A stretch of 49,809 nucleotides of DNA from a virus (lineage: Duplodnaviria; Heunggongvirae; Uroviricota; Caudoviricetes): IMG/VR virus record IMGVR_UViG_2663762603_000001; one strand, written 5' to 3'. Positions 8,733 to 47,892 of this stretch are shown in pieces. The notes under the pieces are model-generated. The model did no database searches and was not told the DNA's origin. It worked only from the letters and a program-made list of their open reading frames with translations. The position numbers were made by a program, and so were the translations under genes. Positions within the stretch are counted from its first letter, which is position 1, and every line of letters starts with the position of its first letter.

Positions 8733-9632
8733 ATGATTGATCCACTTATTAGAAACTTACAGAGTGATATTGCACTACTCCAGCTTTATATCGCGCAACG
8801 CAAACAGGCAGGCTTTCATGACATGGAAAGAATAATTGAGTCATTGACCATCTTTATGTTTCGCGCGCTGAAAATGGGTGAACTGGTAAACATGAATCAG
8901 ATTAAAGTTAATTTTCCCGCCATTGATTTAGCTGATAATAAAAACATGATAGCAGTTCAAGTTACTACGAATGCAAGTCCAGCAAAAATTAAAAAAACTA
9001 TCGAATCTTTTGAGGAAACAAATGAAATAGGAGAGAGTCTGAAAGATAAATACTCTACTTTATATATTTTTGGTTTTTGTAAAGCCTCAAGATACCTAAC
9101 TCCAAGTTATTGTAAAATAATCGACCCCAGCTATTTCGTGAATGAACTTTGCGATAAAGCAGATGAAGATATGGTCCAGGATATGATTGACGCCATTCGA
9201 CGCCATCATGATTATACATCATTACATCCATGGAGTGATAAAGATTCACTCGAAATTATACTCAATATTATTAATCGCAATGCAATAAAACATCGGATGA
9301 GTTGCGAAGGCAGTCTGTCTGATATGCTCACTGGTTTAAAAGAAATTAATGAAGTAATTACAAAAGGAACAATTCAACGTAAGCAACGTTCAAAATCGAT
9401 ATCTGACTTCAAAGATCAAAGCATGGTGAAATTTATGAGAGGTGTAATGGATGATTTGTCTGTTATTCAAGCCATAGTGAACAAATCTAAAGTTAACCAA
9501 GGTGATATGGTTTATATAAGCCATGAAGATATGATTAATATTGATAAATTAAAAGCTAAAATAGCAAGTGATTCATCAGAGATTGCAAGGCTAAATAATA
9601 TTGATATAACACTAAATGTTGTTGATTTATAA
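8733..9632 (+). CDS. SMEK-domain-like protein (candidate defence/abortive-infection protein)
   Basis: 299-aa ORF with AAGGA SD; N-terminal segment …NFPAIDLADNKNMIAVQVTT… resembles recalled SMEK-domain proteins; low-GC island. Confidence 0.6.
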   Translation: MIDPLIRNLQSDIALLQLYIAQRKQAGFHDMERIIESLTIFMFRALKMGELVNMNQIKVNFPAIDLADNKNMIAVQVTTNASPAKIKKTIESFEETNEIGESLKDKYSTLYIFGFCKASRYLTPSYCKIIDPSYFVNELCDKADEDMVQDMIDAIRRHHDYTSLHPWSDKDSLEIILNIINRNAIKHRMSCEGSLSDMLTGLKEINEVITKGTIQRKQRSKSISDFKDQSMVKFMRGVMDDLSVIQAIVNKSKVNQGDMVYISHEDMINIDKLKAKIASDSSEIARLNNIDITLNVVDL

Positions 9633-13020: not shown

Positions 13021-14067
13021 GTGCGGGTATTACTTCGACCTGTTCTGGTACCGGAACTCGGGCTGGTGATCGTTAAGCCGGGCCGTGAATCCATGCCGGT
13101 ATTCCACAATACCCGGGTACTGGTGGAGCCGGAACCGAAAAGCATGCGTAATCTGTCGTCCGGGGTCGTTCCTGCCGTTCGCCAGCCGCTGGCGGAGGAT
13201 AAATCATTACTGCCATTTTTCAGCGACGAACGAGTGATTCGTGCTGCTGGTGGCGCTGGCGCATTGTCTGACTGGTTACTGCGCCATGTTAAATCCTGCC
13301 AGTGGCCACACGGCGATTATCACCACAGTGAAACCGTCATTCACCGTTATGGTACCGGCGCAATGGTGTTGTGCTGGCACTGCGACAACCAGCTGCGCGA
13401 CCAGACCTCCGAATCACTCGGGCAACTTGCTCACCAAAACCTGTCTGCATGGATGATTGACGTCATACTCCATGCAATGAATGGCTCGCAGGAACGGGAA
13501 TTATCGCTGGCTGAATTATCCTGGTGGGCGGTCCGCAATCAGGTGGCGGACGCGCTACCGGAAGCGGTATTACGTCGTTCGCTGGGGTTGCGTGCGGAAA
13601 AAATCCGCTCAATGTACCGTGAAAGCGACATCGTACCGGGAGAGCAGACCGCCACCAGCATACTGAAGCAGCGCACAAAAAATCTTGCGCCGCTGTCTCA
13701 CGCCCACCAGCAAAACCCGCCACAGGAAGAGACGGTGGTCAGCATTGCCGTTGATCCTGAGTCTCCGGAATCTTTCATGAAACGACCTAAACGTCGCCGC
13801 TGGGTTAACGAGAAATACACACGCTGGGTGAAGACACAGCCGTGTGCGTGTTGTGGTAAGCCAGCCGACGATCCCCATCACCTGATTGGTCATGGTCAGG
13901 GCGGAATGGGGACAAAATCTCACGATATTTTCACGCTACCGCTGTGTCGGGAGCATCACAACGAGCTTCATGCGGATCCTCTGGCGTTCGAAGAAAAGCA
14001 TGGTTCTCAGGTTGATTTAATTTTTCGTTTTCTTGATCACGCCTTTGCAACTGGCGTGCTTGGGTAA
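13021..14067 (+). CDS. DUF968-like protein with C-terminal HNH/zinc-finger motif (YdfU-like)
   Basis: 348 aa from GTG 13021 (GGAGG 8 nt upstream); C-terminus CACCGKPADDPHHLIGHG…LCREHHNELH. Confidence 0.65.
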   Translation: MRVLLRPVLVPELGLVIVKPGRESMPVFHNTRVLVEPEPKSMRNLSSGVVPAVRQPLAEDKSLLPFFSDERVIRAAGGAGALSDWLLRHVKSCQWPHGDYHHSETVIHRYGTGAMVLCWHCDNQLRDQTSESLGQLAHQNLSAWMIDVILHAMNGSQERELSLAELSWWAVRNQVADALPEAVLRRSLGLRAEKIRSMYRESDIVPGEQTATSILKQRTKNLAPLSHAHQQNPPQEETVVSIAVDPESPESFMKRPKRRRWVNEKYTRWVKTQPCACCGKPADDPHHLIGHGQGGMGTKSHDIFTLPLCREHHNELHADPLAFEEKHGSQVDLIFRFLDHAFATGVLG

Positions 14068-14079
14068 AAGAGGTGACTG

Positions 14080-14454
14080 ATGCTCATAGATTTGGTTTTA
14101 CCTTACCCGCCGACGGTGAACACTTACTGGCGACGCCGTGGCAGCACATATTTTATCTCGGAGGAGGGAAAGCGTTATCGCCGGGCTGTGGCGCTTATTG
14201 TTCGCCAGCAGCGGCTGAAATTAAGCCTGTCCGGAAGGCTGGCGATAAAGGTGATTGCAGAGCCACCGGATAAGCGTCGTCGCGACCTGGACAATATTCT
14301 GAAAGCACCACTGGATGCGCTGACGCATGCCGGACTTCTCATAGACGACGAGCAGTTTGATGAAATCAATATTGTGCGCGGTCAGCGCGTTCCTGGGGGG
14401 CGGCTGGGCGTGAAGATTTACCCCATAATGCTTGAAGGGCAGGTCAAAAAATGA
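14080..14454 (+). CDS. rusA: RusA Holliday-junction resolvase
   Basis: 124 aa; LPYPPTVNTYW and DLDNILKAPLDALTHAGLLIDD match RusA family. Confidence 0.9.
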   Translation: MLIDLVLPYPPTVNTYWRRRGSTYFISEEGKRYRRAVALIVRQQRLKLSLSGRLAIKVIAEPPDKRRRDLDNILKAPLDALTHAGLLIDDEQFDEINIVRGQRVPGGRLGVKIYPIMLEGQVKK

Positions 14455-15272
14455 AACTGGAAGATTTACCGAAATACTACTCCCCAAAATCCCCCGGCCT
14501 GACTGATGCATCGGCCTCAACGTCGAAAGATGCGCTGAGTATCACTGATGTGATGGCCGCGCAGGGCATGACACAGAATCGGGCTGAGATGGGGTTTTCT
14601 GCGTTCCTTGGGAAAATGGGCATTAGTATGAATGACAGAGAGCGGGCAACAGAATTGCTGACAGAATATGCACTCAGTCGGTGTGATCGCGTGGCGGCGT
14701 TAAGAAAACTCCCGGCAGAAATAAAACCGGCAGTGATGCGTATTATGGCTTCGTATGCGTTTGAAGATTATGCCCGTAGCGCGGCGAGCAAAAAACAGTG
14801 CTCCTGCTGTCACGGAAAAAAATTTATTGAAAGCGAGGTTTTTACAAACAAGATCCAGTATCCGGATGGTAAGCCGCCGGTATGGGCAAAGTGTACGAAA
14901 GGTGTGTATCCGTCTTACTGGGAAGAATGGAAAAAAGTCAGGGAGGTGGTAAAAGTTGCCTGTCCGGAGTGTGGCGGAAAGGGTGAGGTTTCCACCGCCT
15001 GTAAGGATTGCCGTGGGCGTGGTGTCGCCATTCATCGTGAAGAGTCGGTAAAACGTGGTATGCCTGTTATCAGAGACTGCCAGCGTTGTGGTGGTCGTGG
15101 CTGTGAAAGACTACCATCAACGGAGGCATTTAATGCCATATGCAAAGTGACGAGTGCTATCACGCTTGATACGTGGAAAAAATCAGTGAAACGCTTTTAC
15201 GATACGTTGGTGGTTCGGTTTGACATTGAAGAGGCATGGGCGGAGCGGCAGTTAAAGAGGGTAACGCGATAG
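14451..15272 (+). CDS. Q: late-gene antiterminator Q (phage 21/82-type with Cys4 clusters)
   Basis: 273 aa with CPECGGKG…CKDCRGRG…CQRCGGRG motifs; followed by PR'-like promoter and tR'. Confidence 0.85.
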   Translation: MKLEDLPKYYSPKSPGLTDASASTSKDALSITDVMAAQGMTQNRAEMGFSAFLGKMGISMNDRERATELLTEYALSRCDRVAALRKLPAEIKPAVMRIMASYAFEDYARSAASKKQCSCCHGKKFIESEVFTNKIQYPDGKPPVWAKCTKGVYPSYWEEWKKVREVVKVACPECGGKGEVSTACKDCRGRGVAIHREESVKRGMPVIRDCQRCGGRGCERLPSTEAFNAICKVTSAITLDTWKKSVKRFYDTLVVRFDIEEAWAERQLKRVTR

Positions 15273-15277
15273 TGTTG

Positions 15278-15306
15278 TTGATTTTTCCCGAATCTGTGGT
15301 AAATTT
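15278..15306 (+). promoter_or_regulatory. PR'-like late promoter (-35 TTGATT, 17 bp, -10 TAAATT); qut region expected here
   Basis: hexamers read directly; position immediately downstream of Q. Confidence 0.5.
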
Positions 15307-15354
15307 GCTCTAACGATGGGCGTTTTATGCCTGACGTTAGAAGATTTTTTACAC

Positions 15355-15378
15355 CCCGCCGCCTGGCGGGTTTTTTAT
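15355..15378 (+). terminator. tR'-like intrinsic terminator
   Basis: CCCGCCGCCTGGCGGG hairpin + TTTTTT about 50 nt after PR' -10. Confidence 0.7.
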
Positions 15379-15498
15379 GACTGAAATCGCGTCAGTATAG
15401 TAAACGCGCTGGTGGCGGTGAATACCTGTCTTTCAGCTTGCTGGCTTTTTCGACAAGAGTTATTGGTGTGTCACGTTAACCGGAAAAGGGAAAAAGAC

Positions 15499-15696
15499 AT
15501 GCTAAAACAGCAGGATATGACAGAAACCGCCAGAGTGGTGTTTAATGAATTAAGCGTTACCGAACCGGCGACAGTCGGGGAGATAGCGCAGAATACTTAC
15601 CTTTCACGCGAACGCTGCCAGTTAATACTGACCCAGCTGGTTATGGCGGATCTGGCAGACTATCAGTTCGGTTGTTACAGACGCCTTCCGCAGTGA
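15499..15696 (+). CDS. small hypothetical protein
   Basis: 65 aa from ATG 15499 (MLKQQDMTETARV…) after purine-rich SD. Confidence 0.4.
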   Translation: MLKQQDMTETARVVFNELSVTEPATVGEIAQNTYLSRERCQLILTQLVMADLADYQFGCYRRLPQ

Positions 15697-16945: not shown

Positions 16946-17021
16946 GGCCCTTTAGCTCAGTGGTGAGAGCGAGCGACTCATAATCGCCAGGTCGCTGGTT
17001 CAAATCCAGCAAGGGCCACCA
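16946..17021 (+). tRNA. ileZ: tRNA-Ile2 (anticodon CAU, ileX/ileZ-like)
   Basis: 76 nt with 7-bp acceptor stem GGCCCTT/AAGGGCC, anticodon loop CTCATAA, GGTTCAAATCC T-arm, CCA end; near-identical to recalled E. coli ileX. Confidence 0.85.
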
Positions 17022-17030
17022 TATCACATA

Positions 17031-17107
17031 CCACCATTAGCTCATCGGGATAGAGCGCCAGCCTTCGAAGCTGGTTGCGCGGGGTTCGAGTTCTCGATGG
17101 CGGTCCA
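17031..17107 (+). tRNA. tRNA-Arg (anticodon UCG as read)
   Basis: cloverleaf with D-stem GCTC/GAGC, anticodon stem CCAGC/GCTGG, loop CTTCGAA, T-loop TTCGAGT, CCA end; one acceptor mismatch and G-U pairs in T-stem. Confidence 0.65.
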
Positions 17108-38834: not shown

Positions 38835-39578
38835 ATGACAGAGACAGAATCAGCGATTCTGGCGCACGCCCGGCGATGTGCGCCAGCGGAGTCGTGCGGC
38901 TTCGTGGTAAGAACGCCGGAGGGGGAAAGATATTTCCCCTGCGTGAATATCTCCGGTGAGCCGGAGGAGTATTTCCGGATGGCGCCGGAAGACTGGCTGC
39001 AGGCAGAAATGCAGGGTGAGATTGTGGCACTGGTCCACAGCCACCCCGGTGGTCTGCCCAGGCTGAGTGAGGCCGACCGGCGGCTGCAGGTGCAGAGTGA
39101 TTTGCCGTGGTGGCTGGTCTGCCGGGGGACGATTCACAAGTTCCGCTGTGTGCCGCATCTCACCGGGCGGCGCTTTGAGCACGGGGTGACGGACTGTTAC
39201 ACACTGTTCCGGGATGCTTATCATCTGGCGGGGATTGAGATGCCGGACTTTCATCGCGAGGATGACTGGTGGCGTAACGGCCAGAATCTCTATCTGGATA
39301 ATCTGGAGGCCACAGGGCTGTATCAGGTGCCGTTGTCAGCGGCGCAGCCGGGCGATGTGCTGCTGTGCTGTTTTGGTTCATCGGTGCCGAATCATGCCGC
39401 CATTTACTGTGGTGACGGCGAGCTGCTGCACCATATTCCTGAACAACTGAGCAAACGAGAGAGGTACACCGACAAATGGCAGCGACGCACACACTCCCTC
39501 TGGCGTCACCAGGCATGGCACGCATCTGCCTTTACGGGGATTTACAACGATTTGGTCGCCGCATCGACCTTCGTGTGA
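38835..39578 (+). CDS. K: tail assembly protein K (JAB/MPN + NlpC/P60-like)
   Basis: 247 aa from ATG 38835 (MTETESAILAHARRCAPAESCGF…). Confidence 0.85.
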   Translation: MTETESAILAHARRCAPAESCGFVVRTPEGERYFPCVNISGEPEEYFRMAPEDWLQAEMQGEIVALVHSHPGGLPRLSEADRRLQVQSDLPWWLVCRGTIHKFRCVPHLTGRRFEHGVTDCYTLFRDAYHLAGIEMPDFHREDDWWRNGQNLYLDNLEATGLYQVPLSAAQPGDVLLCCFGSSVPNHAAIYCGDGELLHHIPEQLSKRERYTDKWQRRTHSLWRHQAWHASAFTGIYNDLVAASTFV

Positions 39579-40117
39579 AAACGGGGGCCGAAGCCATCCG
39601 GGCGCTGGCCACACAGCTCCCGGCGTTTCGCCAGAAACTGAATGAGGGCTGGTATCAGGTGCGCATTGCCGGGCGTGATGCAGGCGAAAACGAATTATCT
39701 GCCCGTCTTAATGAGCCGCTGGCAAATGGTGCCGTGATCCACATCGTACCGCGTCTGGCGGGTGCCAAAAGTGGTGGTGTTTTTCAGGCAGTGCTGGGTG
39801 CGGCGCTGATTGCTACGGCAATCTGGATGCCAGGAATCAGTATCGCTTTCAGTAACATTCTCTTTTCTATGGGGGCAGCGATGACGCTTGGTGGTGTCGC
39901 ACAGATGCTGGCCCCTAAACCCAAAACTCCACGTACACAGACAACGGATAACGGCAAACAGAACACCTATTTCTCCTCACTGGATAACATGGTTGCCCAG
40001 GGCAATGTCCTGCCTGTTCTGTACGGTGAAATGCGCGTGGGGTCACGTGTGGCATCTCAGGAGATCAGCACGGCAGATGAAGGGGATGGTGGTCAGGTTG
40101 TGGTAATTGGGCGGTAA
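39476..40117 (+). CDS. I: tail assembly protein I
   Basis: 213 aa; ubiquitin-like N-terminus and Gly/Ala-rich hydrophobic C-terminus as lambda I. Confidence 0.8.
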   Translation: MAATHTLPLASPGMARICLYGDLQRFGRRIDLRVKTGAEAIRALATQLPAFRQKLNEGWYQVRIAGRDAGENELSARLNEPLANGAVIHIVPRLAGAKSGGVFQAVLGAALIATAIWMPGISIAFSNILFSMGAAMTLGGVAQMLAPKPKTPRTQTTDNGKQNTYFSSLDNMVAQGNVLPVLYGEMRVGSRVASQEISTADEGDGGQVVVIGR

Positions 40118-40189
40118 TATTATTTACTCATGTTCTAACTGATTTAATATTTATATCGAACACTGATAATTATTCTATTGGTTAGCTAT

Positions 40190-40528
40190 ATGAACAAAAC
40201 GATTTTATTCTGCACGATTATTGCCTTAACAGGATGTAAATCTTTGGATTACGTAAAATCCGGAAAACCTGTAATGGAAGGTAATTCATTAAAAAATATT
40301 GATGAATTGTCAGGCTGCATATCCAGACAATGGGCTGGTAATGGAACACCTATAACATCCCTTCCTATTGAGAATGGGGTAAGCCTTTTAGTTCCACAGG
40401 CTATGGGGGGATATGATGTTGTGCTTGATATCAAAAAAGCAGGAAATGGCAGTAGTTTTACTCTTTATGAACGTGTACCAGCATTAACGCCAAAAATTTT
40501 TGCTGATAGTGTTAATGCATGTAAATAA
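40190..40528 (+). CDS. lipoprotein moron inserted between I and J (candidate superinfection-exclusion lipoprotein)
   Basis: 112 aa from ATG 40190; lipoprotein signal MNKTILFCTIIALTG|C; low-GC; own terminator. Confidence 0.6.
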   Translation: MNKTILFCTIIALTGCKSLDYVKSGKPVMEGNSLKNIDELSGCISRQWAGNGTPITSLPIENGVSLLVPQAMGGYDVVLDIKKAGNGSSFTLYERVPALTPKIFADSVNACK

Positions 40529-40551
40529 TAGTTAATCCTGCCGTAACTCAT

Positions 40552-40580
40552 GAGCCGCCTTTTGGGCGGCTTTGTTGTTT
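40552..40580 (+). terminator. intrinsic terminator after lipoprotein gene
   Basis: GAGCCGCC-TTTT-GGGCGGCT hairpin + TTTGTTGTTT. Confidence 0.65.
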
Positions 40581-40594
40581 ATGGAGTGTGAGGA

Positions 40595-43500
40595 ATGGGT
40601 AAAGGAAGCAGTAAGGGGCATACCCCGCGCGAAGCGAAGGACAACCTGAAGTCCACGCAGCTGCTGAGTGTGATCGATGCCATCAGCGAAGGGCCGGTTG
40701 AAGGTCCGGTGGATGGATTAAAAAGCGTGCTGCTGAACAGTACGCCGGTGCTGGACAGTGAGGGGAATACCAATATATCCGGCGTCACGGTGGTGTTCCG
40801 GGCCGGTGAGCAGGAGCAGACACCGCCGGAGGGATTTGAATCCTCCGGCTCCGAGACGGTGCTGGGTACGGAAGTGAAGTACGACACGCCGATTACCCGG
40901 ACCATCACGTCGGCAAACATCGACCGTCTGCGCTTTACCTTCGGTGTGCAGGCACTGGTGGAAACCACCTCAAAGGGGGACCGGAATCCGTCGGAAGTCC
41001 GCCTGCTGGTTCAGATACAGCGTAATGGTGGCTGGGTGACGGAAAAAGACATCACCATTAAAGGCAAAACCACCTCACAGTATCTAGCATCGGTGGTGGT
41101 GGGTAACCTGCCGCCGCGCCCGTTCAATATCCGGATGCGCAGGATGACGCCGGACAGCACCACAGACCAGCTGCAGAACAAAACGCTCTGGTCGTCATAC
41201 ACCGAAATCATCGATGTGAAACAGTGCTACCCGAACACGGCACTGGTCGGCGTACAGGTGGATTCGGAGCAGTTCGGCAGCCAGCAGGTGAGCCGTAATT
41301 ATCATCTGCGCGGGCGTATTCTGCAGGTGCCGTCGAACTATAACCCGCAGACTCGGCAATACAGCGGTATCTGGGACGGAACGTTTAAGCCAGCATACAG
41401 CAATAACATGGCCTGGTGTCTGTGGGATATGCTGACCCATCCACGCTACGGCATGGGGAAACGTCTTGGTGCGGCGGATGTGGACAAATGGGCGCTGTAT
41501 GTCATCGGCCAGTACTGCGACCAGTCAGTGCCGGATGGCTTTGGTGGCACGGAGCCGCGCATCACCTGTAACGCTTACCTGACCACACAGCGTAAGGCGT
41601 GGGATGTGCTCAGTGATTTCTGTTCGGCGATGCGCTGTATGCCGGTATGGAACGGGCAGACGCTGACGTTCGTGCAGGACCGACCGTCGGATAAGGTGTG
41701 GACCTATAACCGCAGTAATGTGGTGATGCCGGATGATGGCGCGCCGTTCCGCTACAGCTTCAGCGCCCTGAAGGACCGCCATAATGCCGTTGAGGTGAAC
41801 TGGATTGACCCGGATAACGGCTGGGAGACGGCGACAGAGCTTGTTGAAGATACGCAGGCCATTGCCCGTTACGGTCGTAACGTCACGAAGATGGATGCCT
41901 TTGGCTGTACCAGCCGGGGGCAGGCACACCGCGCCGGGCTGTGGCTGATTAAAACGGAGCTGCTGGAAACGCAGACCGTGGACTTCAGCGTGGGTGCAGA
42001 AGGGCTTCGCCATGTACCGGGCGATGTCATTGAAATCTGTGATGATGACTATGCCGGTATCAGCATCGGCGGGCGCGTGCTGGCGGTGAACAGCCAGACG
42101 CGGACACTGACGCTCGACCGTGAAATCACGCTGCCATCCTCCGGCACCACGCTGATAAGCCTGGTTGACGGACAGGGGAATCCGGTCAGCGTGGAGGTCC
42201 AGTCCGTCACCGACGGCGTGAAGGTGAAAGTGAGCCGTGTTCCTGACGGCGTTGCCGAATACAGCGTGTGGGGGCTGAAGCTGCCGACGCTGCGCCAGCG
42301 CCTGTTCCGCTGCGTGAGTATCCGTGAGAACGATGGCGGCACGTATGCCATCACCGCCGTGCAGCATGTACCGGAAAAAGAAGCCATCGTGGATAACGGG
42401 GCGCACTTTGACGGCGACCAGAGCGGCACGGTGAATGGTGTCACGCCGCCAGCGGTGCAGCACCTGACTGCCGAAGTCACCGCAGACAGCGGGGAGTATC
42501 AGGTACTGGCCCGCTGGGACACGCCGAAGGTGGTGAAGGGCGTGAGCTTCCTGCTTCGCCTGACCGTGACAGCGGACGACGGCAGTGAGCGGCTGGTCAG
42601 CACGGCCCGGACGACGGAAACCACTTACCGCTTCACACAACTGGCTCTGGGGAACTACAGGCTGACAGTCCGGGCAGTAAATGCGTGGGGGCAGCAGGGC
42701 GATCCGGCGTCGGTATCGTTCCGGATTGCCGCACCGGCAGCGCCGTCGCGGATTGAGCTGACGCCGGGCTATTTTCAGATAACCGCCACGCCGCATCTTG
42801 CCGTTTATGACCCGACGGTACAGTTTGAGTTCTGGTTTTCGGAAAAGCGGATTACCGATATCAGGAAGGTTGAAACCACAGCGCGCTATCTTGGCACGGG
42901 GCTGTACTGGATAGCCGCCAGTATCAATATCAAACCGGGCCATGATTATTATTTTTACGTTCGCAGTGTGAACACCGTTGGCAAATCGGCATTCGTGGAG
43001 GCTGTTGGTCAGCCGAGTGATGATGCATCCGGTTATCTGGATTTTTTCAAAGGCGAGATAGGGAAAACCCATCTGGCTCAGGAGCTGTGGACGCAGATTG
43101 ATAACGGTCAGCTTGCGCCTGACCTGGCTGAAATCAGGACGTCCATTAAGGATGTCAGCAATGAAATCACGCAGACCGTCAATAAGAAACTGGAAGACCA
43201 GAGTGCGGCAATTCAGCAGATACAGAAGGTTCAGGTTGATACAAATAATAATCTGAACAGCATGTGGGCTGTGAAGCTGCAACAGATGAAGGACGGACGC
43301 CTTTATATTGCGGGTATCGGTGCCGGTATTGAGAATACGCCAGCAGGAATGCAGAGTCAGGTGCTGCTGGCGGCAGACAGGATTGCGATGATTAATCCTG
43401 CGAATGGCAACACAAAGCCGATGTTTGTTGGTCAGGGCGATCAGATATTCATGAACGACGTGTTCCTGAAACGCCTGACGGCTCCCACCATTACCAGCGG

Positions 43501-44074
43501 CGGTAATCCTCCGGCATTTTCCCTGACACCGGACGGGCGGCTGACGGCGAAAAATGCCGATATTAGCGGTAACGTGAATGCGAACTCCGGGACGCTCAAC
43601 AACGTCACGATTAACGAGAACTGTCGGGTTCTGGGAAAACTGTCCGCCAACCAGATTGAAGGCGATCTCGTTAAAACAGTGGGCAAAGCTTTCCCCCGGG
43701 ACTCCCGTGCACCGGAGCGGTGGCCATCAGGGACCATTACCGTCAGGGTTTATGACGATCAGCCGTTTGACCGGCAAATTGTTATTCCGGCGGTGGCATT
43801 CAGTGGCGCTAAGCATGAGAGAGAGCATACTGATATTTACTCCTCATGCCGTCTGATAGTGCGGAAAAACGGTGCTGAAATTTATAACCGTACCGCGCTG
43901 GATAATACGCTGATTTACAGTGGCGTTATTGATATGCCTGCCGGTCACGGTCACATGACACTGGAGTTTTCGGTGTCAGCATGGCTGGTAAATAACTGGT
44001 ATCCCACAGCAAGTATCAGCGATTTGCTGGTTGTGGTGATGAAGAAAGCCACTACAGGCATCACGATTAGCTGA
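40595..44074 (+). CDS. J: host specificity / tip attachment protein J
   Basis: 1159 aa, lambda J-like; GAGGA SD. Confidence 0.9.
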
Positions 44075-44141: not shown

Positions 44142-44741
44142 ATGCGTAAATTATGTGCTGTTATTCTGTCCGCAGTAGTCTGGCTGGTTGCCGCTGGTAT
44201 GCCAGCGAGCGCAGCAGAGCATCAGTCCACACTAAGCGCCGGGTATCTTCAGACCCATACTGATATGCCAGGCAGCGATGATCTGAACGGGATTAACGTG
44301 AAATACCGTTATGAGTTTACGGACACGCTGGGGCTGGTGACGTCATTCAGTTATGCCAATGCCAAAGATGAGCAAAAAACGCATTACAGCGATACCCGCT
44401 GGCATGAAGATTCCGTGCGTAACCGCTGGTTCAGCGTGATGGCGGGGCCGTCTGTGCGCGTGAATGAATGGTTCAGCGCGTATGCGATGGCGGGTGTGAC
44501 TTACAGTCGTGTGTCGACTTTTTCCGGGGATTATCTCCGTGTAACTGACAGCAAGGGGAAAACGCACGATGTGCTGACCGGAAGTGATGACGGTCGCCAC
44601 AGCAACACGTCTCTGGCGTGGGGGGCTGGCGTGCAGTTTAACCCGACCGAATCCGTGGCCATTGATATTGCTTATGAAGGCTCCGGCAGTGGTGACTGGC
44701 GTACCAACAGTTTCATCGTTGGTGTCGGCTATAAATTCTGA
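44142..44741 (+). CDS. lom: Lom/Ail/PagC-family outer membrane beta-barrel protein
   Basis: 199 aa with signal peptide and C-terminal …VGVGYKF; position between J and stf as lambda lom. Confidence 0.85.
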   Translation: MRKLCAVILSAVVWLVAAGMPASAAEHQSTLSAGYLQTHTDMPGSDDLNGINVKYRYEFTDTLGLVTSFSYANAKDEQKTHYSDTRWHEDSVRNRWFSVMAGPSVRVNEWFSAYAMAGVTYSRVSTFSGDYLRVTDSKGKTHDVLTGSDDGRHSNTSLAWGAGVQFNPTESVAIDIAYEGSGSGDWRTNSFIVGVGYKF

Positions 44742-44805: not shown

Positions 44806-47800
44806 ATGGCAGTACTGATTTCAGGTGTACTGAAAGATGGTGCAGGTAAGCCGATACAAAACTGCACCATTCAGCTAAAGGCCAGGCGCAACAGCACCAC
44901 GGTGGTGGTGAACACAGTGGCCTCAGAAAATCCGGATGAAGCCGGGCGTTATACAATGGACGTCGAGTATGGTCAGTACAGCGTCAGTCTGTTGGTGGAG
45001 GGATTCCCGCCGTCACACGCCGGGATTATCACCGTATATGAGGACTCAAAGCCGGGCACACTGAATGATTTCCTCGGTGCAATGACGGAGGATGATGTCC
45101 GGCCAGAGGCACTGCGCCGTTTTGAACTGATGGTGGAAGAGGTGGCGCGTAACGCGTCCGCAGTGGCACAGAACACGGCAGCCGCGAAGAAGTCAGCCAG
45201 CGATGCCCGCACATCAGCCCGTGAGGCGGCAACCCATGCGACTGATGCTGCAGGCTCAGCACGCGCAGCCAGCACGTCAGCCGGACAGGCCGCGTCGTCG
45301 GCTCAGTCAGCGTCTTCCAGCGCAGGAGCGGCATCAACAAAGGCCAGTGAAGCATCGAAAAGTGCTGCTGCTGCAGAGTCCTCAAAAAGCGCGGCAGCTA
45401 CCAGTGCCAGTGCCGCGAAAACGTCAGAAACGAATGCGGCAGCGTCACAACAATCAGCAGCCACTTCTGCATCCACCGCGACCACGAAAGCGTCAGAAGC
45501 AGCCACTTCAGCACGGGATGCGTCGGCTTCAAAAGAGGCGGCAAAATCATCAGAAACGAACGCAGCCTCGAGCGCCAGCAGCGCAGCTTCCTCGGCAACG
45601 GCGGCAGCAAATTCTGCGAAGGCGGCAAAAACGTCCGAGACGAACGCCAGGTCTTCTGAAACGGCAGCGGGACAGAGCGCCTCAGCTGCGGCAGACTCAA
45701 AAACAGCGGCTGCATTATCTGCCAGTGCCGCGTCAACAAGTGCCGGGCAGGCCTCAGCCAGTGCCACCGCCGCCGGAAAATCGGCAGAAAGTGCTGCATC
45801 GTCTGCTTCAACAGCCACAACGAAGGCTGGCGAAGCCGCTGTACAGGCCAGCGCAGCAGCGAGGTCTGCTTCCGCAGCGAAGACATCCGAGACGAACGCG
45901 AAAGCGTCGGAAACCAGCGCAGAATCCTCAAAAACGGCTGCCGCATCGTCCGCCAGTTCGGCGGCGTCATCGGCATCATCTGCGTCTGCTTCAAAAGATG
46001 AGGCGACCAGACAGGCGTCAGCAGCAAAGGGCAGCGCCACGACGGCATCCACGAAGGCGACAGAGGCAGCTGGCAGTGCGACGGCGGCAGCTCAGAGCAA
46101 AAGTACGGCGGAATCCGCGGCAACGCGCGCTGAGACAGCGGCAAAACGGGCAGAGGATATTGCATCCGCCGTGGCGCTTGAGGATGCGAGCACGACGAAA
46201 AAGGGGATAGTACAGCTCAGCAGTGCGACTAACAGCACTTCCGAGTCACTGGCGGCAACGCCAAAAGCCGTTAAGGCCGCGTATGAGCTGGCTAACGGGA
46301 AATACACCGCACAGGATGCAACGACAGCACAGAAAGGGATAGTTCAGCTTAGCAACGCGACCAACAGCACATCTGAAACGCTTGCCGCGACACCAAAGGC
46401 AGTAAAAGCAGCCAATGACAATGCTGAGAAACGTCTGCAGAAAGATCAGAACGGTGCGGATATCCCTGGCAAAGATACCTTTACGAAAAATATTGGTGCC
46501 TGCCGTGCCTTCGGTGGGTCAGTAAGCACAACAACAGGAAACTGGACGACTGCACAGTTTATCGAGTGGCTGGATTCTCAGGGAGCATTTAACCATCCAT
46601 ACTGGATGTGCAAGGGTTCCTGGTCTTATGGCAATAATAAAATCATTACTGATACTGACTGCGGTAATATTCATCTCGCCGGAGCTGTCATTGAAGTAAT
46701 GGGGATAAAGTCAGCGATGACGATCCGCATTACCACACCGACCACCTCCACTGGTGGTGGAACAACTAACGCCCAGTTTACCTATATTAATCACGGAACA
46801 GATTATTCACCTGGCTGGCGAAGGGACTATAACTCCAGAAATAAGCCAACGGCATCAGAGATCGGGGCGTTACCGTCAGGTGGAACAGCAGTATCATCAG
46901 TTAATCTGGCTTCAAAAGGTCGGGTAACCGCGCTGACAGACAATACGCAGGGGGCAGCAGGTCTTGAGTTATACGAGGTGTATAACAACGGATATCCAAC
47001 AGCGTATGGAAATATCATTCACCTGAAAGGGATGACAGCCGTTGGCGAAGGTGAGTTACTCATCGGCTGGAGTGGTACAAGCGGTGCTCATGCTCCGGCA
47101 TTTATTCGTTCACGACGGGATACGACCGACGCAAACTGGTCGCCGTGGGCGCAGCTTTACACCTCGGCTCATCCTCCTGCAGAGTTTTATCCAGTCGGCG
47201 CACCAATCCCGTGGCCATCAGATACCGTTCCGTCTGGCTATGCCCTGATGCAGGGGCAGACTTTTGACAAATCTGCATACCCGAAACTTGCAGCCGCTTA
47301 TCCGTCAGGCGTGATCCCTGATATGCGTGGCTGGACGATTAAGGGCAAACCCGCCAGTGGTCGTGCCGTATTGTCTCAGGAACAGGACGGCATTAAATCG
47401 CACACCCACAGCGCCAGCGCATCCAGTACGGATTTGGGGACGAAAAACACATCGTCGTTTGATTACGGAACCAAATCCACGAATAACACCGGGGCGCATA
47501 CGCACAGTCTGAGTGGCTCTACGGGGTCTGCCGGTGATCATACTCATGGTAATGGTATTCGTTGGCCAGGAGGCGGCGGTTCTGCGTTAGCATTTTATGA
47601 TGGCGGTGGGTTCACTTATGTCCAGGATTCACAGTATCAAGTAAGCCCGGGGACTTCTTCCCGTAGATCGTATTATCAACGTATTCAGACACAGTCAGCA
47701 GGTGCTCATACCCACTCGCTGTCTGGTACTGCAGCAAGTTCTGGCGCACATGCACATACTGTAGGTATTGGTGCGCATACGCACTCCGTTGCGATTGGTT

Positions 47801-47892
47801 CACATGGACACACCATCACCGTTAACGCTGCTGGTAACGCGGAAAACACCGTCAAAAACATCGCATTTAACTATATTGTGAGGCTTGCATAA
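44806..47892 (+). CDS. stf: side tail fiber protein Stf (Ala/Ser-rich repetitive shaft, KGIVQLS repeats, His-rich HxH C-terminal tip)
   Basis: 1028 aa; long imperfect repeats of A/S/T-rich units (…AAKTSETNA…), two KKGIVQLS…ATPKAVKAA repeats, C-terminal GAHTHS motifs. Confidence 0.85.

What the first reader, a model, noticed from the sequence alone, without database searches (positions are those of the whole stretch)
40120..40590. Lipoprotein moron with its own terminator inserted between tail genes I and J
In lambda, I and J are adjacent. Here a low-GC 470-bp insert encodes a 112-aa lipoprotein (lipobox LTG|C) followed by a strong hairpin terminator immediately before J. Phage-encoded lipoproteins at tail-gene boundaries (Cor-type, T5 Llp-type) are known to block the phage's own receptor; this may be an analogous superinfection-exclusion factor.
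Basis: partly seen in the sequence, partly recalled or inferred. Interest (0 to 1): 0.5.

Follow-up and report, generated by a model that had tools for sequence, protein, structure and literature searches.

The report
Lipoprotein moron between tail genes
A small add-on gene for an outer-membrane lipoprotein of an unstudied family sits between two tail genes of a lambda-like E. coli prophage; it may help shut out other phages, but add-on genes of this kind are well known and its function is untested.

Summary
The sequence features are real. A 112-aa ORF (40190-40528, +) with a signal peptide and lipobox LTG|C lies in about 430 bp of 29-41% GC DNA between tail genes I and J. A hairpin sits just before J. 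The gene is accessory: the I-J junction occurs at 8785 places in complete E. coli genomes, and only about 334 carry the insert. Homologues (28-62% identity) occupy four slots of lambda-like tail operons: T|H, K|I, I|J and after J. They always read in the same direction as the tail genes. The family is PHROG 914 (function unknown) and has no Pfam, NCBIfam or PADLOC match. It keeps the lipobox Cys and two further Cys, never has Asp at +2, and shows dN/dS of about 0.1-0.2. AlphaFold gives a compact alpha/beta domain (pLDDT 89) that resembles Flpp3/DUF3568 only remotely.

Two points need correcting. The "own terminator" is homologous to a hairpin already present in the empty I-J spacer of lambda, N15 and other prophages. 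No convincing promoter was found.

The protein is not a Cor/Llp, Bor or Lpp021/Lpp010 family member. A superinfection-exclusion role is plausible by analogy but untested. HK97 already has an annotated moron in this same I|J slot. Verdict: an ordinary kind of element carrying an uncharacterised cargo family.

The parts
39476..40117 (+). Tail assembly gene I. It is the upstream neighbour; its stop codon TAA at 40115-40117 is the left edge of the insert.
   Evidence: Pfam PF06805 Lambda_tail_I, E 4e-24. The alignment with empty sites stays collinear up to the stop codon.
40118..40189 (+). AT-rich 72-nt leader of the cassette. It has only weak sigma-70-like hexamers (TTTACT-16/17-TAATAT/AATATT; TTTAAT-16-GATAAT) and a weak ribosome-binding site.
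   Evidence: No + strand promoter reached 9 of 12 matches; the best matches are 8 of 12. An IS66-family element is inserted between I and the lipoprotein gene in one genome, L028, so that interval tolerates disruption.
40190..40528 (+). Lipoprotein gene, 112 aa precursor. Signal peptide is aa 1-15 (40190-40234), lipobox LTGC, lipidated Cys16 at 40235-40237, Lys at +2. The mature protein is 97 aa with conserved Cys43 and Cys111.
   Evidence: PHROG 914, E 7e-33. AlphaFold pLDDT 88.9 with a beta-alpha-beta4-alpha domain. dN/dS 0.08-0.22.
40118..40547 (+). Insert-specific DNA that is absent from empty I-J junctions (net gain of 417 bp).
   Evidence: Alignment A1 with EPEC and O157 prophages lacking the insert. 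Places that cover 65% of the query span about 883-890 bp, against 1301 bp in the window.
40552..40582 (+). G+C-rich hairpin (GAGCCGCCT-TTT-GGGCGGCTT) plus an interrupted T tract. It looks like a terminator and is homologous to the resident hairpin in the lambda I-J spacer.
   Evidence: -22.6 kcal/mol for the 71-nt stretch, z = -2.6. Homologous hairpins occur in lambda, in empty sites and in N15. Equivalent hairpins follow the homologous cassettes in other slots.
40595..44074 (+). Central tail fibre / host-specificity gene J (1159 aa), the downstream neighbour.
   Evidence: ORF list. Its C-terminal 199 aa are 95-99% identical to J of VT1-Sakai, the PPompW prophages and phage 2G7b. The last 140 aa are 59% identical to J of the OmpC-dependent phage phi330.

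Best explanation
Shown here: the element is a horizontally mobile accessory cassette (a moron in Hendrix's sense). It lies in the late tail operon of a lambda-like prophage and consists of an AT-rich leader and one gene, upstream of a hairpin that precedes J.

Inferred from sequence rules: the gene product is exported through Sec, lipidated on Cys16 and sorted by Lol to the inner leaflet of the outer membrane, because residue +2 is Lys and not Asp. It would present a compact alpha/beta domain of about 95 aa, probably disulfide-stapled (Cys43-Cys111), to the periplasm on a tether of about 10 residues.

Inferred by analogy and context only: the protein most likely acts as an envelope-level phage-exclusion factor in the manner of T5 Llp and Cor. 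It would bind an outer-membrane protein from the periplasmic side, so that lambda-like siphophages can no longer adsorb productively or inject. Because the gene lies inside the Q-antiterminated late operon, it is certainly transcribed late in lytic growth. There it would also protect progeny from being wasted on debris of the lysed cell, the 'lytic conversion' role of Llp. Expression from the repressed prophage is possible but not shown.

The confidence of 0.4 applies to the exclusion function. The cassette and lipoprotein parts alone would rate about 0.9.
For: Accessory and mobile. The insert is present at about 334 of 8785 I-J junctions in complete E. coli genomes, and the empty site was aligned. 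The gene is 36% GC against 58% in the flanks. Homologues occupy T|H, K|I, I|J and after-J slots. Among 80 IMG/VR loci the counts were 53 I|J, 17 K|I and 6 T|H, all co-oriented with the tail genes.

Dispensable for virions. Phages with the same J C-terminus lack it.

Precedents for tail-module envelope morons that exclude phages. HK97 gp15 sits in the T|H slot (PMC3594210). Llp is periplasmic, disulfide-bonded and binds the FhuA plug (PMC9586334). Lpp021 and Lpp010 are lipoproteins encoded in a structural gene cluster, and Lpp010 excludes lambda (PMC11893012). Exclusion factors are encoded next to J-like hubs in small coliphages (PMC11990801).

Late expression. In the K|I slot only 23-32 nt separate K from the gene, which leaves no room for a separate promoter, and the ribosome-binding site there is strong.
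Against: No experiment bears on function. There is no sequence or fold relationship to any proven exclusion lipoprotein, and no PADLOC match. Known periplasmic lipoprotein blockers act on TonB-dependent transporters through their plug domain, whereas this J tip is closest to a porin (OmpC)-binding J. The lipoprotein does not co-vary with the receptor-binding end of J: L018 and L019 have identical lipoproteins but only 72% identity over the last 250 aa of J. The family spans phages with unrelated J termini, including 3100-3700-aa J proteins. Fraca carries both this gene and cor. Only about 5% of prophages with this very common J C-terminus carry the gene. No promoter is evident, so expression in lysogens is unproven.
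Confidence: 0.4

Rival explanations
1. Lysogenic-conversion or host-fitness lipoprotein. The protein would alter the envelope for the benefit of the lysogen, for example serum or complement resistance as with lambda Bor / Iss or plasmid TraT, or adhesion or stress tolerance. It would have no direct effect on phages.
For: Lambda-type prophages carry such cargo next to tail genes; Lom lies directly after J in this window at 44142-44741. The gene is AT-rich foreign DNA typical of conversion genes. It is present in only 6% of complete E. coli genomes. The best fold match, Flpp3, is a bacterial lipoprotein. From my own knowledge, Flpp3 is virulence-associated in Francisella. The lipoprotein shows no dependence on J tip type.
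Against: There is no match to Pfam Lambda_Bor or any other Pfam family. No promoter is evident, and in the K|I slot the gene is packed into the late operon, which fits a lytic-phase role better than a lysogen-expressed one. All 80 IMG/VR loci and all genome contexts examined are inside tail operons, never at the usual conversion-gene sites near att or the lysis genes.
Confidence: 0.25
2. Post-adsorption entry block. The periplasmic domain would intercept the incoming lambda-like tail tip or tape-measure protein, or a periplasmic host factor those proteins need, and stop DNA injection without touching the receptor. This is functionally like HK97 gp15 or the Gram-positive lipoprotein Ltp.
For: What all carriers share is a lambda-like M-L-K-I-J tip and tape-measure module, not a particular receptor-binding end of J. 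One clade occupies the T|H slot that holds HK97 gene 15. Identical lipoproteins accompany diverged J tips. Fraca already has Cor for receptor masking.
Against: There is no homology to gp15, which is an inner-membrane YebO-like protein, and nothing suggests a relationship to Ltp. Tape-measure proteins vary in length among carriers of the identical lipoprotein: 711-1024 aa. The mechanism is purely conjectural.
Confidence: 0.15
3. Late-phase helper for the phage's own lytic cycle in the periplasm, for example modulating the outer membrane or peptidoglycan at lysis. It would not be an exclusion factor.
For: The gene is embedded in, and co-oriented with, late genes in every locus examined. In the K|I slot it has a strong ribosome-binding site and no room for a promoter.
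Against: It is dispensable: close relatives and isolated phages lack it. It is not in the lysis cassette. It is a folded 97-aa domain; from my own knowledge this is unlike the short proline-rich Rz1 o-spanins. The prophage has its own lysis genes elsewhere.
Confidence: 0.1
4. Virion structural or tail-assembly component, or a spurious ORF.
For: Only its position among tail genes.
Against: A lipoprotein signal peptide sends the product out of the cytoplasm, where tails assemble. The gene is absent from about 95% of near-identical I-J junctions and from viable phages with the same J. It is not spurious, because the family is conserved and under purifying selection with a confident fold.
Confidence: 0.03

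Closest known systems
HK97 gene 22 / gene 23 morons, and the moron concept of Juhala et al. 2000
   Same: The slot is exactly the same: extra gene(s) between I and J of a lambdoid tail operon, annotated 'moron product' and closed by a hairpin + TTTTTATGGA directly before J.
   Different: The cargo is unrelated. HK97 gp22 has no signal peptide and belongs to another PHROG. HK97 also has a reverse-oriented gene 23 in the slot.
HK97 gp15 moron (superinfection exclusion)
   Same: It is an envelope protein encoded by a moron inside the tail operon, in the T|H slot. Enterobacter prophage homologues of the lipoprotein occupy that same slot. It blocks entry of related phages.
   Different: gp15 is a small inner-membrane YebO-like protein, not a lipoprotein, and shows no similarity. 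Its exclusion function is experimentally shown, whereas nothing is shown here.
Cor (phi80, T1, N15, HK022) and T5 Llp, PHROG 1119
   Same: These are phage-encoded outer-membrane lipoproteins encoded beside host-recognition genes. Llp is periplasmic and has an intramolecular disulfide. The family here also has a conserved Cys pair and is predicted to sort to the outer membrane.
   Different: Their precursors are about 77 aa, against 112 aa here. PHROG 1119 does not match this protein. HMM similarity covers the signal peptide only. The Llp structures 8a60 and 7qjf are not among the fold matches. Cor lies after J or the receptor-binding gene, not before J. Fraca has both genes. Their target is the FhuA plug, and no such target is indicated here.
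mEpimmI lipoproteins Lpp021 (Pfam PF24052) and Lpp010
   Same: They are lipoproteins encoded in the structural gene cluster of temperate coliphages and are shown to exclude the cognate phages. Lpp010 also excludes lambda.
   Different: They are 72-82 aa, lie downstream of J on the opposite strand, and are unrelated in sequence.
Lambda Bor / Iss
   Same: A prophage-encoded outer-membrane lipoprotein of about 100 aa carried as accessory cargo.
   Different: There is no Pfam Lambda_Bor match. From my own knowledge, Bor lies by the lysis genes, is expressed in lysogens, and confers serum resistance rather than phage exclusion.
Flpp3 / DUF3568 lipoprotein fold (Francisella); BamC N-terminal domain
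   Different: Identity is 6-12%, there is no Pfam DUF3568 match, and Foldseek finds nothing at E <= 1e-3. The resemblance is at fold level only, and the function of Flpp3 is itself unclear.

Membership tests
Moron (Juhala/Hendrix definition, as restated in PMC3594210) | Extra DNA between genes that are adjacent in related phages | tested here: met
   About 334 of 8785 I-J junctions carry it. The empty-site alignment shows a net gain of 417 bp.
Moron (Juhala/Hendrix definition, as restated in PMC3594210) | Base composition differs from the surrounding genes | tested here: met
   The gene is 36% GC against 58% in the flanks; the local minimum is 29%.
Moron (Juhala/Hendrix definition, as restated in PMC3594210) | Own promoter | tested here: inconclusive
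   No + strand site reached 9 of 12 matches, and only 8-of-12 matches occur in 22%-GC DNA. Homologues in the K|I slot have spacers of only 23-32 nt.
Moron (Juhala/Hendrix definition, as restated in PMC3594210) | Own terminator | tested here: inconclusive
   A hairpin is present at 40552-40572, and every homologous cassette examined is followed by a downstream hairpin, with a T run in all but the after-J locus. However, a homologous hairpin exists in the empty lambda, EPEC and N15 I-J spacers.
Moron (Juhala/Hendrix definition, as restated in PMC3594210) | Expressed from the repressed prophage | not testable with these tools
   This needs RNA-seq or 5' RACE on a lysogen.
Bacterial lipoprotein (Lgt/LspA pathway) | Signal peptide with a positive n-region and a hydrophobic h-region, ending in the lipobox [LVI][ASTVI][GAS]C | tested here: met
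   MNK-TILFCTIIA-LTG|C. The Cys is invariant in 58 homologues, and a lipobox is present in 135 of 141 remote representatives.
Bacterial lipoprotein (Lgt/LspA pathway) | Outer-membrane sorting: no Asp at +2 (Lol avoidance rule) | tested here: met
   Residue +2 is Lys here. Among the 135 relatives with a lipobox, +2 is mostly A, S or T and never D. Localisation itself is inferred.
Bacterial lipoprotein (Lgt/LspA pathway) | Actual acylation and globomycin-sensitive processing | not testable with these tools
   Experimental.
Cor / Llp superinfection-exclusion lipoproteins (PHROG 1119) | Sequence membership in the family profile | tested here: not met
   PHROG 1119 detects Fraca Cor (E 7e-34) and T5 Llp (E 1e-19). 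The window protein matches only PHROG 914 at E <= 1. The A4 profile aligns to Cor and Llp only over the signal peptide.
Cor / Llp superinfection-exclusion lipoproteins (PHROG 1119) | Llp-like fold | tested here: not met
Cor / Llp superinfection-exclusion lipoproteins (PHROG 1119) | Blocks infection by phages that use the cognate receptor (FhuA) | not testable with these tools
   This needs plating-efficiency and adsorption assays.
Pfam PF24052 Phage_lipoprotein (Lpp021 type) and the Lpp010 type | Sequence membership | tested here: not met
   Lpp021 hits PF24052 at E 6e-31, whereas the window protein has no Pfam hit at E <= 1. Lpp010 belongs to PHROG 12984. Similarity to both is confined to the signal peptide.
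Lambda Bor / Iss (Pfam Lambda_Bor) | Sequence membership | tested here: not met
   No Pfam family matched at E <= 1.
PHROG 914 (function unknown) | Full-length profile match | tested here: met
   E 7.3e-33, residues 1-112 against profile positions 1-118 of 118.
DUF3568 / Flpp3-like lipoproteins | Sequence or clear structural membership | tested here: inconclusive
Known anti-phage defence systems (PADLOC-DB 2.0) | Match to any model | tested here: not met
   No families matched at E <= 1.

The most novel reading that the evidence does not exclude
PHROG 914 lipoproteins could be a broad, previously unrecognised class of exclusion factor. They would not mask one receptor. Instead they would act from the periplasmic face of the outer membrane on a step common to all lambda-like tail tips, such as tip or tape-measure transit. 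This would explain why the same protein travels with unrelated J tips and coexists with Cor.

A corollary concerns the hairpin + TTTATGGAG module that precedes the next tail gene at every slot, and that persists in lambda's 'empty' I-J spacer. It could be a portable junction through which such cassettes are swapped between slots and phages.
Probability: 0.12. Interest if true: 0.6.

Novelty: new member of a known kind. Interest (0 to 1): 0.33.

Why it matters
If the protein excludes phages, it would add a structurally new lipoprotein family to the short list of envelope-level exclusion factors. The exact protein is carried by about 6% of complete E. coli genomes, and relatives occur in Klebsiella, Enterobacter, Kluyvera and Citrobacter prophages. 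It accompanies the commonest J tip type in E. coli, so it could influence prophage traffic and phage-therapy host range in clinical Enterobacteriaceae. If it is a host-fitness factor instead, it is one more conversion gene. In either case the element type, a moron in the tail operon, is textbook. The same I|J slot is already annotated as a moron site in HK97.

Tried and rejected
Searches that found nothing useful:
- Megablast of the insert against 50,697 phage records gave no match. tblastn found only the 30%-identical Fraca and LMessi genes.
- Pfam and NCBIfam gave only a sub-threshold VirB7 signal-peptide hit; PADLOC gave nothing.
- The PDB sequence search matched only the signal peptide of PqiC.
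- Rfam gave only a 19-bit GcvB match against a gathering threshold of 42, so it is chance.
- A literature search for WP_001332187 returned no papers. Two broader literature searches found no paper on this protein.

Searches that could not be run as planned:
- The Foldseek afdb50 library was unavailable.
With A3 it found one Kluyvera locus, again in the K|I slot.

Ideas rejected:
- Receptor prediction from J. The C-terminus is only 59% identical to that of the OmpC-dependent phage phi330, so the receptor remains unknown.
- A structural or assembly role.
- An o-spanin role.
- A Cor, Llp, Bor or Lpp family member.
- The minus-strand ORFs 40218-40349 and 40249-40434. One of them is called in one public annotation, but it has no Pfam hit and overlaps the conserved + strand gene.
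- HepS (PMC13043305) is a cytoplasmic HEPN system and is irrelevant here.

Not attempted: a fused-chain AlphaFold test of binding partners. Host outer-membrane proteins are not admissible inputs, and a single-chain fusion would not be reliable.

Full report
**1. What is in the sequence**

Gene I (39476-40117; Pfam Lambda_tail_I) ends with TAA at 40115-40117. Gene J (1159 aa) starts at 40595. The 477-nt gap between them holds three things:
- a 72-nt AT-rich leader;
- an ORF at 40190-40528 encoding MNKTILFCTIIALTG|CKS..., 112 aa;
- a hairpin at 40552-40572 (9-bp stem, 6 G-C pairs), followed by TGTTGTTTAT and then the J ribosome-binding site.

GC content drops to 29-41% in this gap, against 55-62% around it. 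The N-terminus is a textbook lipoprotein signal: a positive n-region, a 10-residue h-region with mean hydropathy 2.7, the lipobox LTGC, and Lys at +2.

**2. Is it an insertion?**

Yes. A 1301-nt probe spanning the junction finds 8785 places in 4350 of 5426 complete E. coli genomes. Only 334 genomes have a place covering at least 80% of the probe. Most of the others sampled match in two pieces that cover 65% of the probe and span about 885 bp, so they lack about 417 bp. The insert alone is found in 338 genomes at 95-100% identity, annotated 'hypothetical protein'.

Alignment with two empty sites puts the left edge directly after the I stop codon and the right edge at about 40547. The empty sites have the 60-nt spacer of lambda itself, and that spacer already contains a homologous hairpin, AAACCGCCtgcGGGCGGTTTtgtcaTTTATGGAG. 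N15 annotates a putative rho-independent terminator at the same place. So the hairpin is real and conserved, but it is not something the insert alone brought in.

**3. The gene family**

Pfam, NCBIfam and PADLOC give nothing. PHROGs places the protein full-length in PHROG 914, function unknown (E 7e-33).

Searching 5.8 billion proteins finds relatives at 44-62% identity in Klebsiella, Kluyvera, Enterobacter and Jejubacter. A profile search adds a second clade at 24-35% identity in Escherichia, Enterobacter, Citrobacter, Atlantibacter, Pantoea and Trabulsiella. An exhaustive HMM search of 1.84 billion cluster representatives finds 418 clusters at E <= 1e-3, almost all of them proteins of 105-125 aa.

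Several features are conserved:
- In a 58-sequence alignment, Cys16, Cys43 and Cys111 are invariant, together with K35 and G63.
- Among 141 remote representatives, 135 have a lipobox. In the sequences printed, two further Cys keep the same spacing. None has Asp at +2.
- Pairwise dN/dS is 0.08-0.22, although dS is saturated.

AlphaFold2 run on the alignment gives pLDDT 88.9 and pTM 0.79. After the signal helix, the model is a beta-alpha-beta4-alpha domain. Its best structural neighbours are:
- DUF302;
- KA1 domains;

All share 12% identity or less, so this is fold-level resemblance only. In BFVD the only solid match is an uncharacterised Pseudomonas phage protein (E 5e-5).

**4. Genomic context of relatives**

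Every context examined lies inside a lambda-like tail operon, on the same strand as the tail genes. The slot differs between lineages:

| Slot | Carriers |
|---|---|
| T\|H | Enterobacter HK97-like prophages |
| K\|I | Klebsiella and Kluyvera prophages, second-clade E. coli prophages, temperate phages Fraca and LMessi |
| I\|J | the E. coli clade of this window |
| after J | Klebsiella oxytoca, behind a 3744-aa J |

Among 80 IMG/VR loci the tally is 53 I|J, 17 K|I and 6 T|H, with 4 loci cut by contig ends.

Every cassette is followed by a hairpin. In five of the six examined it is a G+C-rich stem followed by a T run and TTTATGG(A/G)G or an equivalent ribosome-binding site, placed directly before the next tail gene. 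The after-J K. oxytoca locus has a hairpin without a clear T run.

In the K|I slot only 23-32 nt separate K from the lipoprotein start, and the ribosome-binding site is strong, so those genes are simply part of the late operon. In the window the leader offers only 8-of-12 promoter matches, which is unremarkable in 22%-GC DNA.

The same slots hold other cargo elsewhere:
- HK97 has annotated 'moron' genes 22 and 23 between I and J, closed by an equivalent hairpin.
- HK97 gene 15, the archetypal moron and a proven exclusion protein, lies in T|H.
- Phage Fostie has an unrelated lipoprotein (PHROG 890) in K|I.
- mEp021 has an HNH endonuclease between I and J.

**5. Structural component?**

No. The C-terminal 199 aa of J are 95-99% identical in 29 deposited phage or prophage records and 90-95% identical in 25 more. 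These include VT1-Sakai, 2G7b and PhiR55_1. None of them has the gene. This J tip is the commonest in E. coli, at 7451 places in 3377 genomes, so only about 5% of such prophages carry the lipoprotein. A product exported by a lipoprotein signal could not join cytoplasmic tail assembly in any case.

**6. Is it a Cor/Llp-type blocker?**

Membership in those families fails on every test:
- PHROG 1119 ('Cor superinfection exclusion protein') recognises both Fraca Cor and T5 Llp but not this protein.
- The family profile aligns to Cor, Llp, Lpp021 and Lpp010 only across the signal peptide.
- The Llp structures 8a60 and 7qjf are in the PDB copy but are not among the fold matches.

Working like those proteins remains possible. 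Llp is a periplasmic, disulfide-bonded outer-membrane lipoprotein that locks FhuA from below. Lipoproteins in the structural cluster of mEpimmI phages exclude OmpA- and LamB-dependent phages, lambda included. Exclusion factors are typically encoded next to J-like hubs.

Several observations count against a strict 'own receptor' model:
- L018 and L019 have identical lipoproteins, but their J proteins are 72% identical over the last 250 aa.
- Second-clade carriers have J ends of a different architecture altogether, 19-21% identical to the window's.
- Klebsiella carriers have J proteins of 3100-3700 aa.
- Fraca has cor as well.

In the 11 E. coli I|J loci examined, the J tip is always the same type (92.5-100% identity). 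Adjacency and common descent explain that without any functional link.

The receptor is unknown. The nearest J with an assigned receptor, from the OmpC-dependent phage phi330, is 59% identical over the last 140 aa.

**7. Conclusion**

Shown:
- the element is a mobile accessory cassette in the tail operon;
- it encodes a conserved lipoprotein under selection, from an uncharacterised family;
- virions do not need it.

Inferred from established rules:
- lipidation, and Lol sorting to the periplasmic face of the outer membrane;
- a Cys43-Cys111 disulfide;
- late transcription by read-through from the Q-modified late promoter.

Inferred by analogy only: envelope-level phage exclusion, which I rate at about 0.4 for receptor-side action plus about 0.15 for a post-adsorption block. 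The main rival is a host-fitness (conversion) role, at about 0.25.

The element type and even the slot are already known from HK97. What is new is the cargo family and its wide distribution. Interest is moderate to low until a phenotype is shown.

Noticed in passing
window 40552-40594; L035 (lambda) 760-805; L119 (N15) 1394-1417; L120 (HK97) 1708-1741; L018 5340-5394; L001 6337-6391: A G+C-rich hairpin followed by TTT(T)ATGGAG precedes the next tail gene at every moron slot. It persists in the 'empty' I-J spacers of lambda and N15. The HK97 pre-J hairpin (AGCCACCtttgGGTGGCT) is nearly identical to the pre-I hairpin of Fraca and L018. It may be a portable recombination junction or a moron scar.
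   Followed up: partly
L120 (HK97) 1076-1576: HK97 carries the annotated morons gp22 (forward) and gp23 (reverse) in the same I|J slot as the finding. Both are unrelated to the lipoprotein.
   Followed up: yes
L118 (phage Fostie) 808-1218: An unrelated 136-aa lipoprotein (PHROG 890, no Pfam match) occupies the K|I slot. At least two different lipoprotein families therefore use tail-tip operon slots.
   Followed up: partly
L028 2377-4893: In one E. coli genome, IS66-family transposase genes lie between gene I and the lipoprotein gene, consistent with an IS66 insertion in the spacer.
   Followed up: no
window 43100-43380 (J aa ~835-930) compared with L003: The central part of J is mosaic between two prophages that share an identical lipoprotein cassette and the same J C-terminus. 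One has a 28-aa shorter, diverged segment.
   Followed up: no
L001 5725-5994 (Fraca); L002 5647-5994 (LMessi): In these two phages a further small ORF of 89-115 aa, with no obvious signal peptide, sits between K and the lipoprotein gene. Several second-clade IMG/VR loci leave about 390 nt of unassigned sequence at the same place. This may be a second cargo gene in the slot.
   Followed up: no
L015 (mEp021) 45958-46524; L023 (phi330) 13905-15500: Other cargo is found in tail-operon slots: an HNH endonuclease between I and J in mEp021, and Arc-like repressor and Ant genes between L and K in phi330.
   Followed up: no
window 44806-47892: The side tail fibre ORF (1028 aa) has a very long Ala/Ser/Thr-rich, repeat-like stretch at roughly aa 110-470.
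   Followed up: no
window 16946-17107: Two tRNA genes, tRNA-Met (CAT) and tRNA-Arg (TCG), lie upstream of the late genes.
   Followed up: no
P0094 (4538 aa) and P0181 (873 aa): Two long proteins match the family profile in many short stretches (28 and 9). These are probably low-complexity or repeat artefacts rather than true relatives.
   Followed up: no
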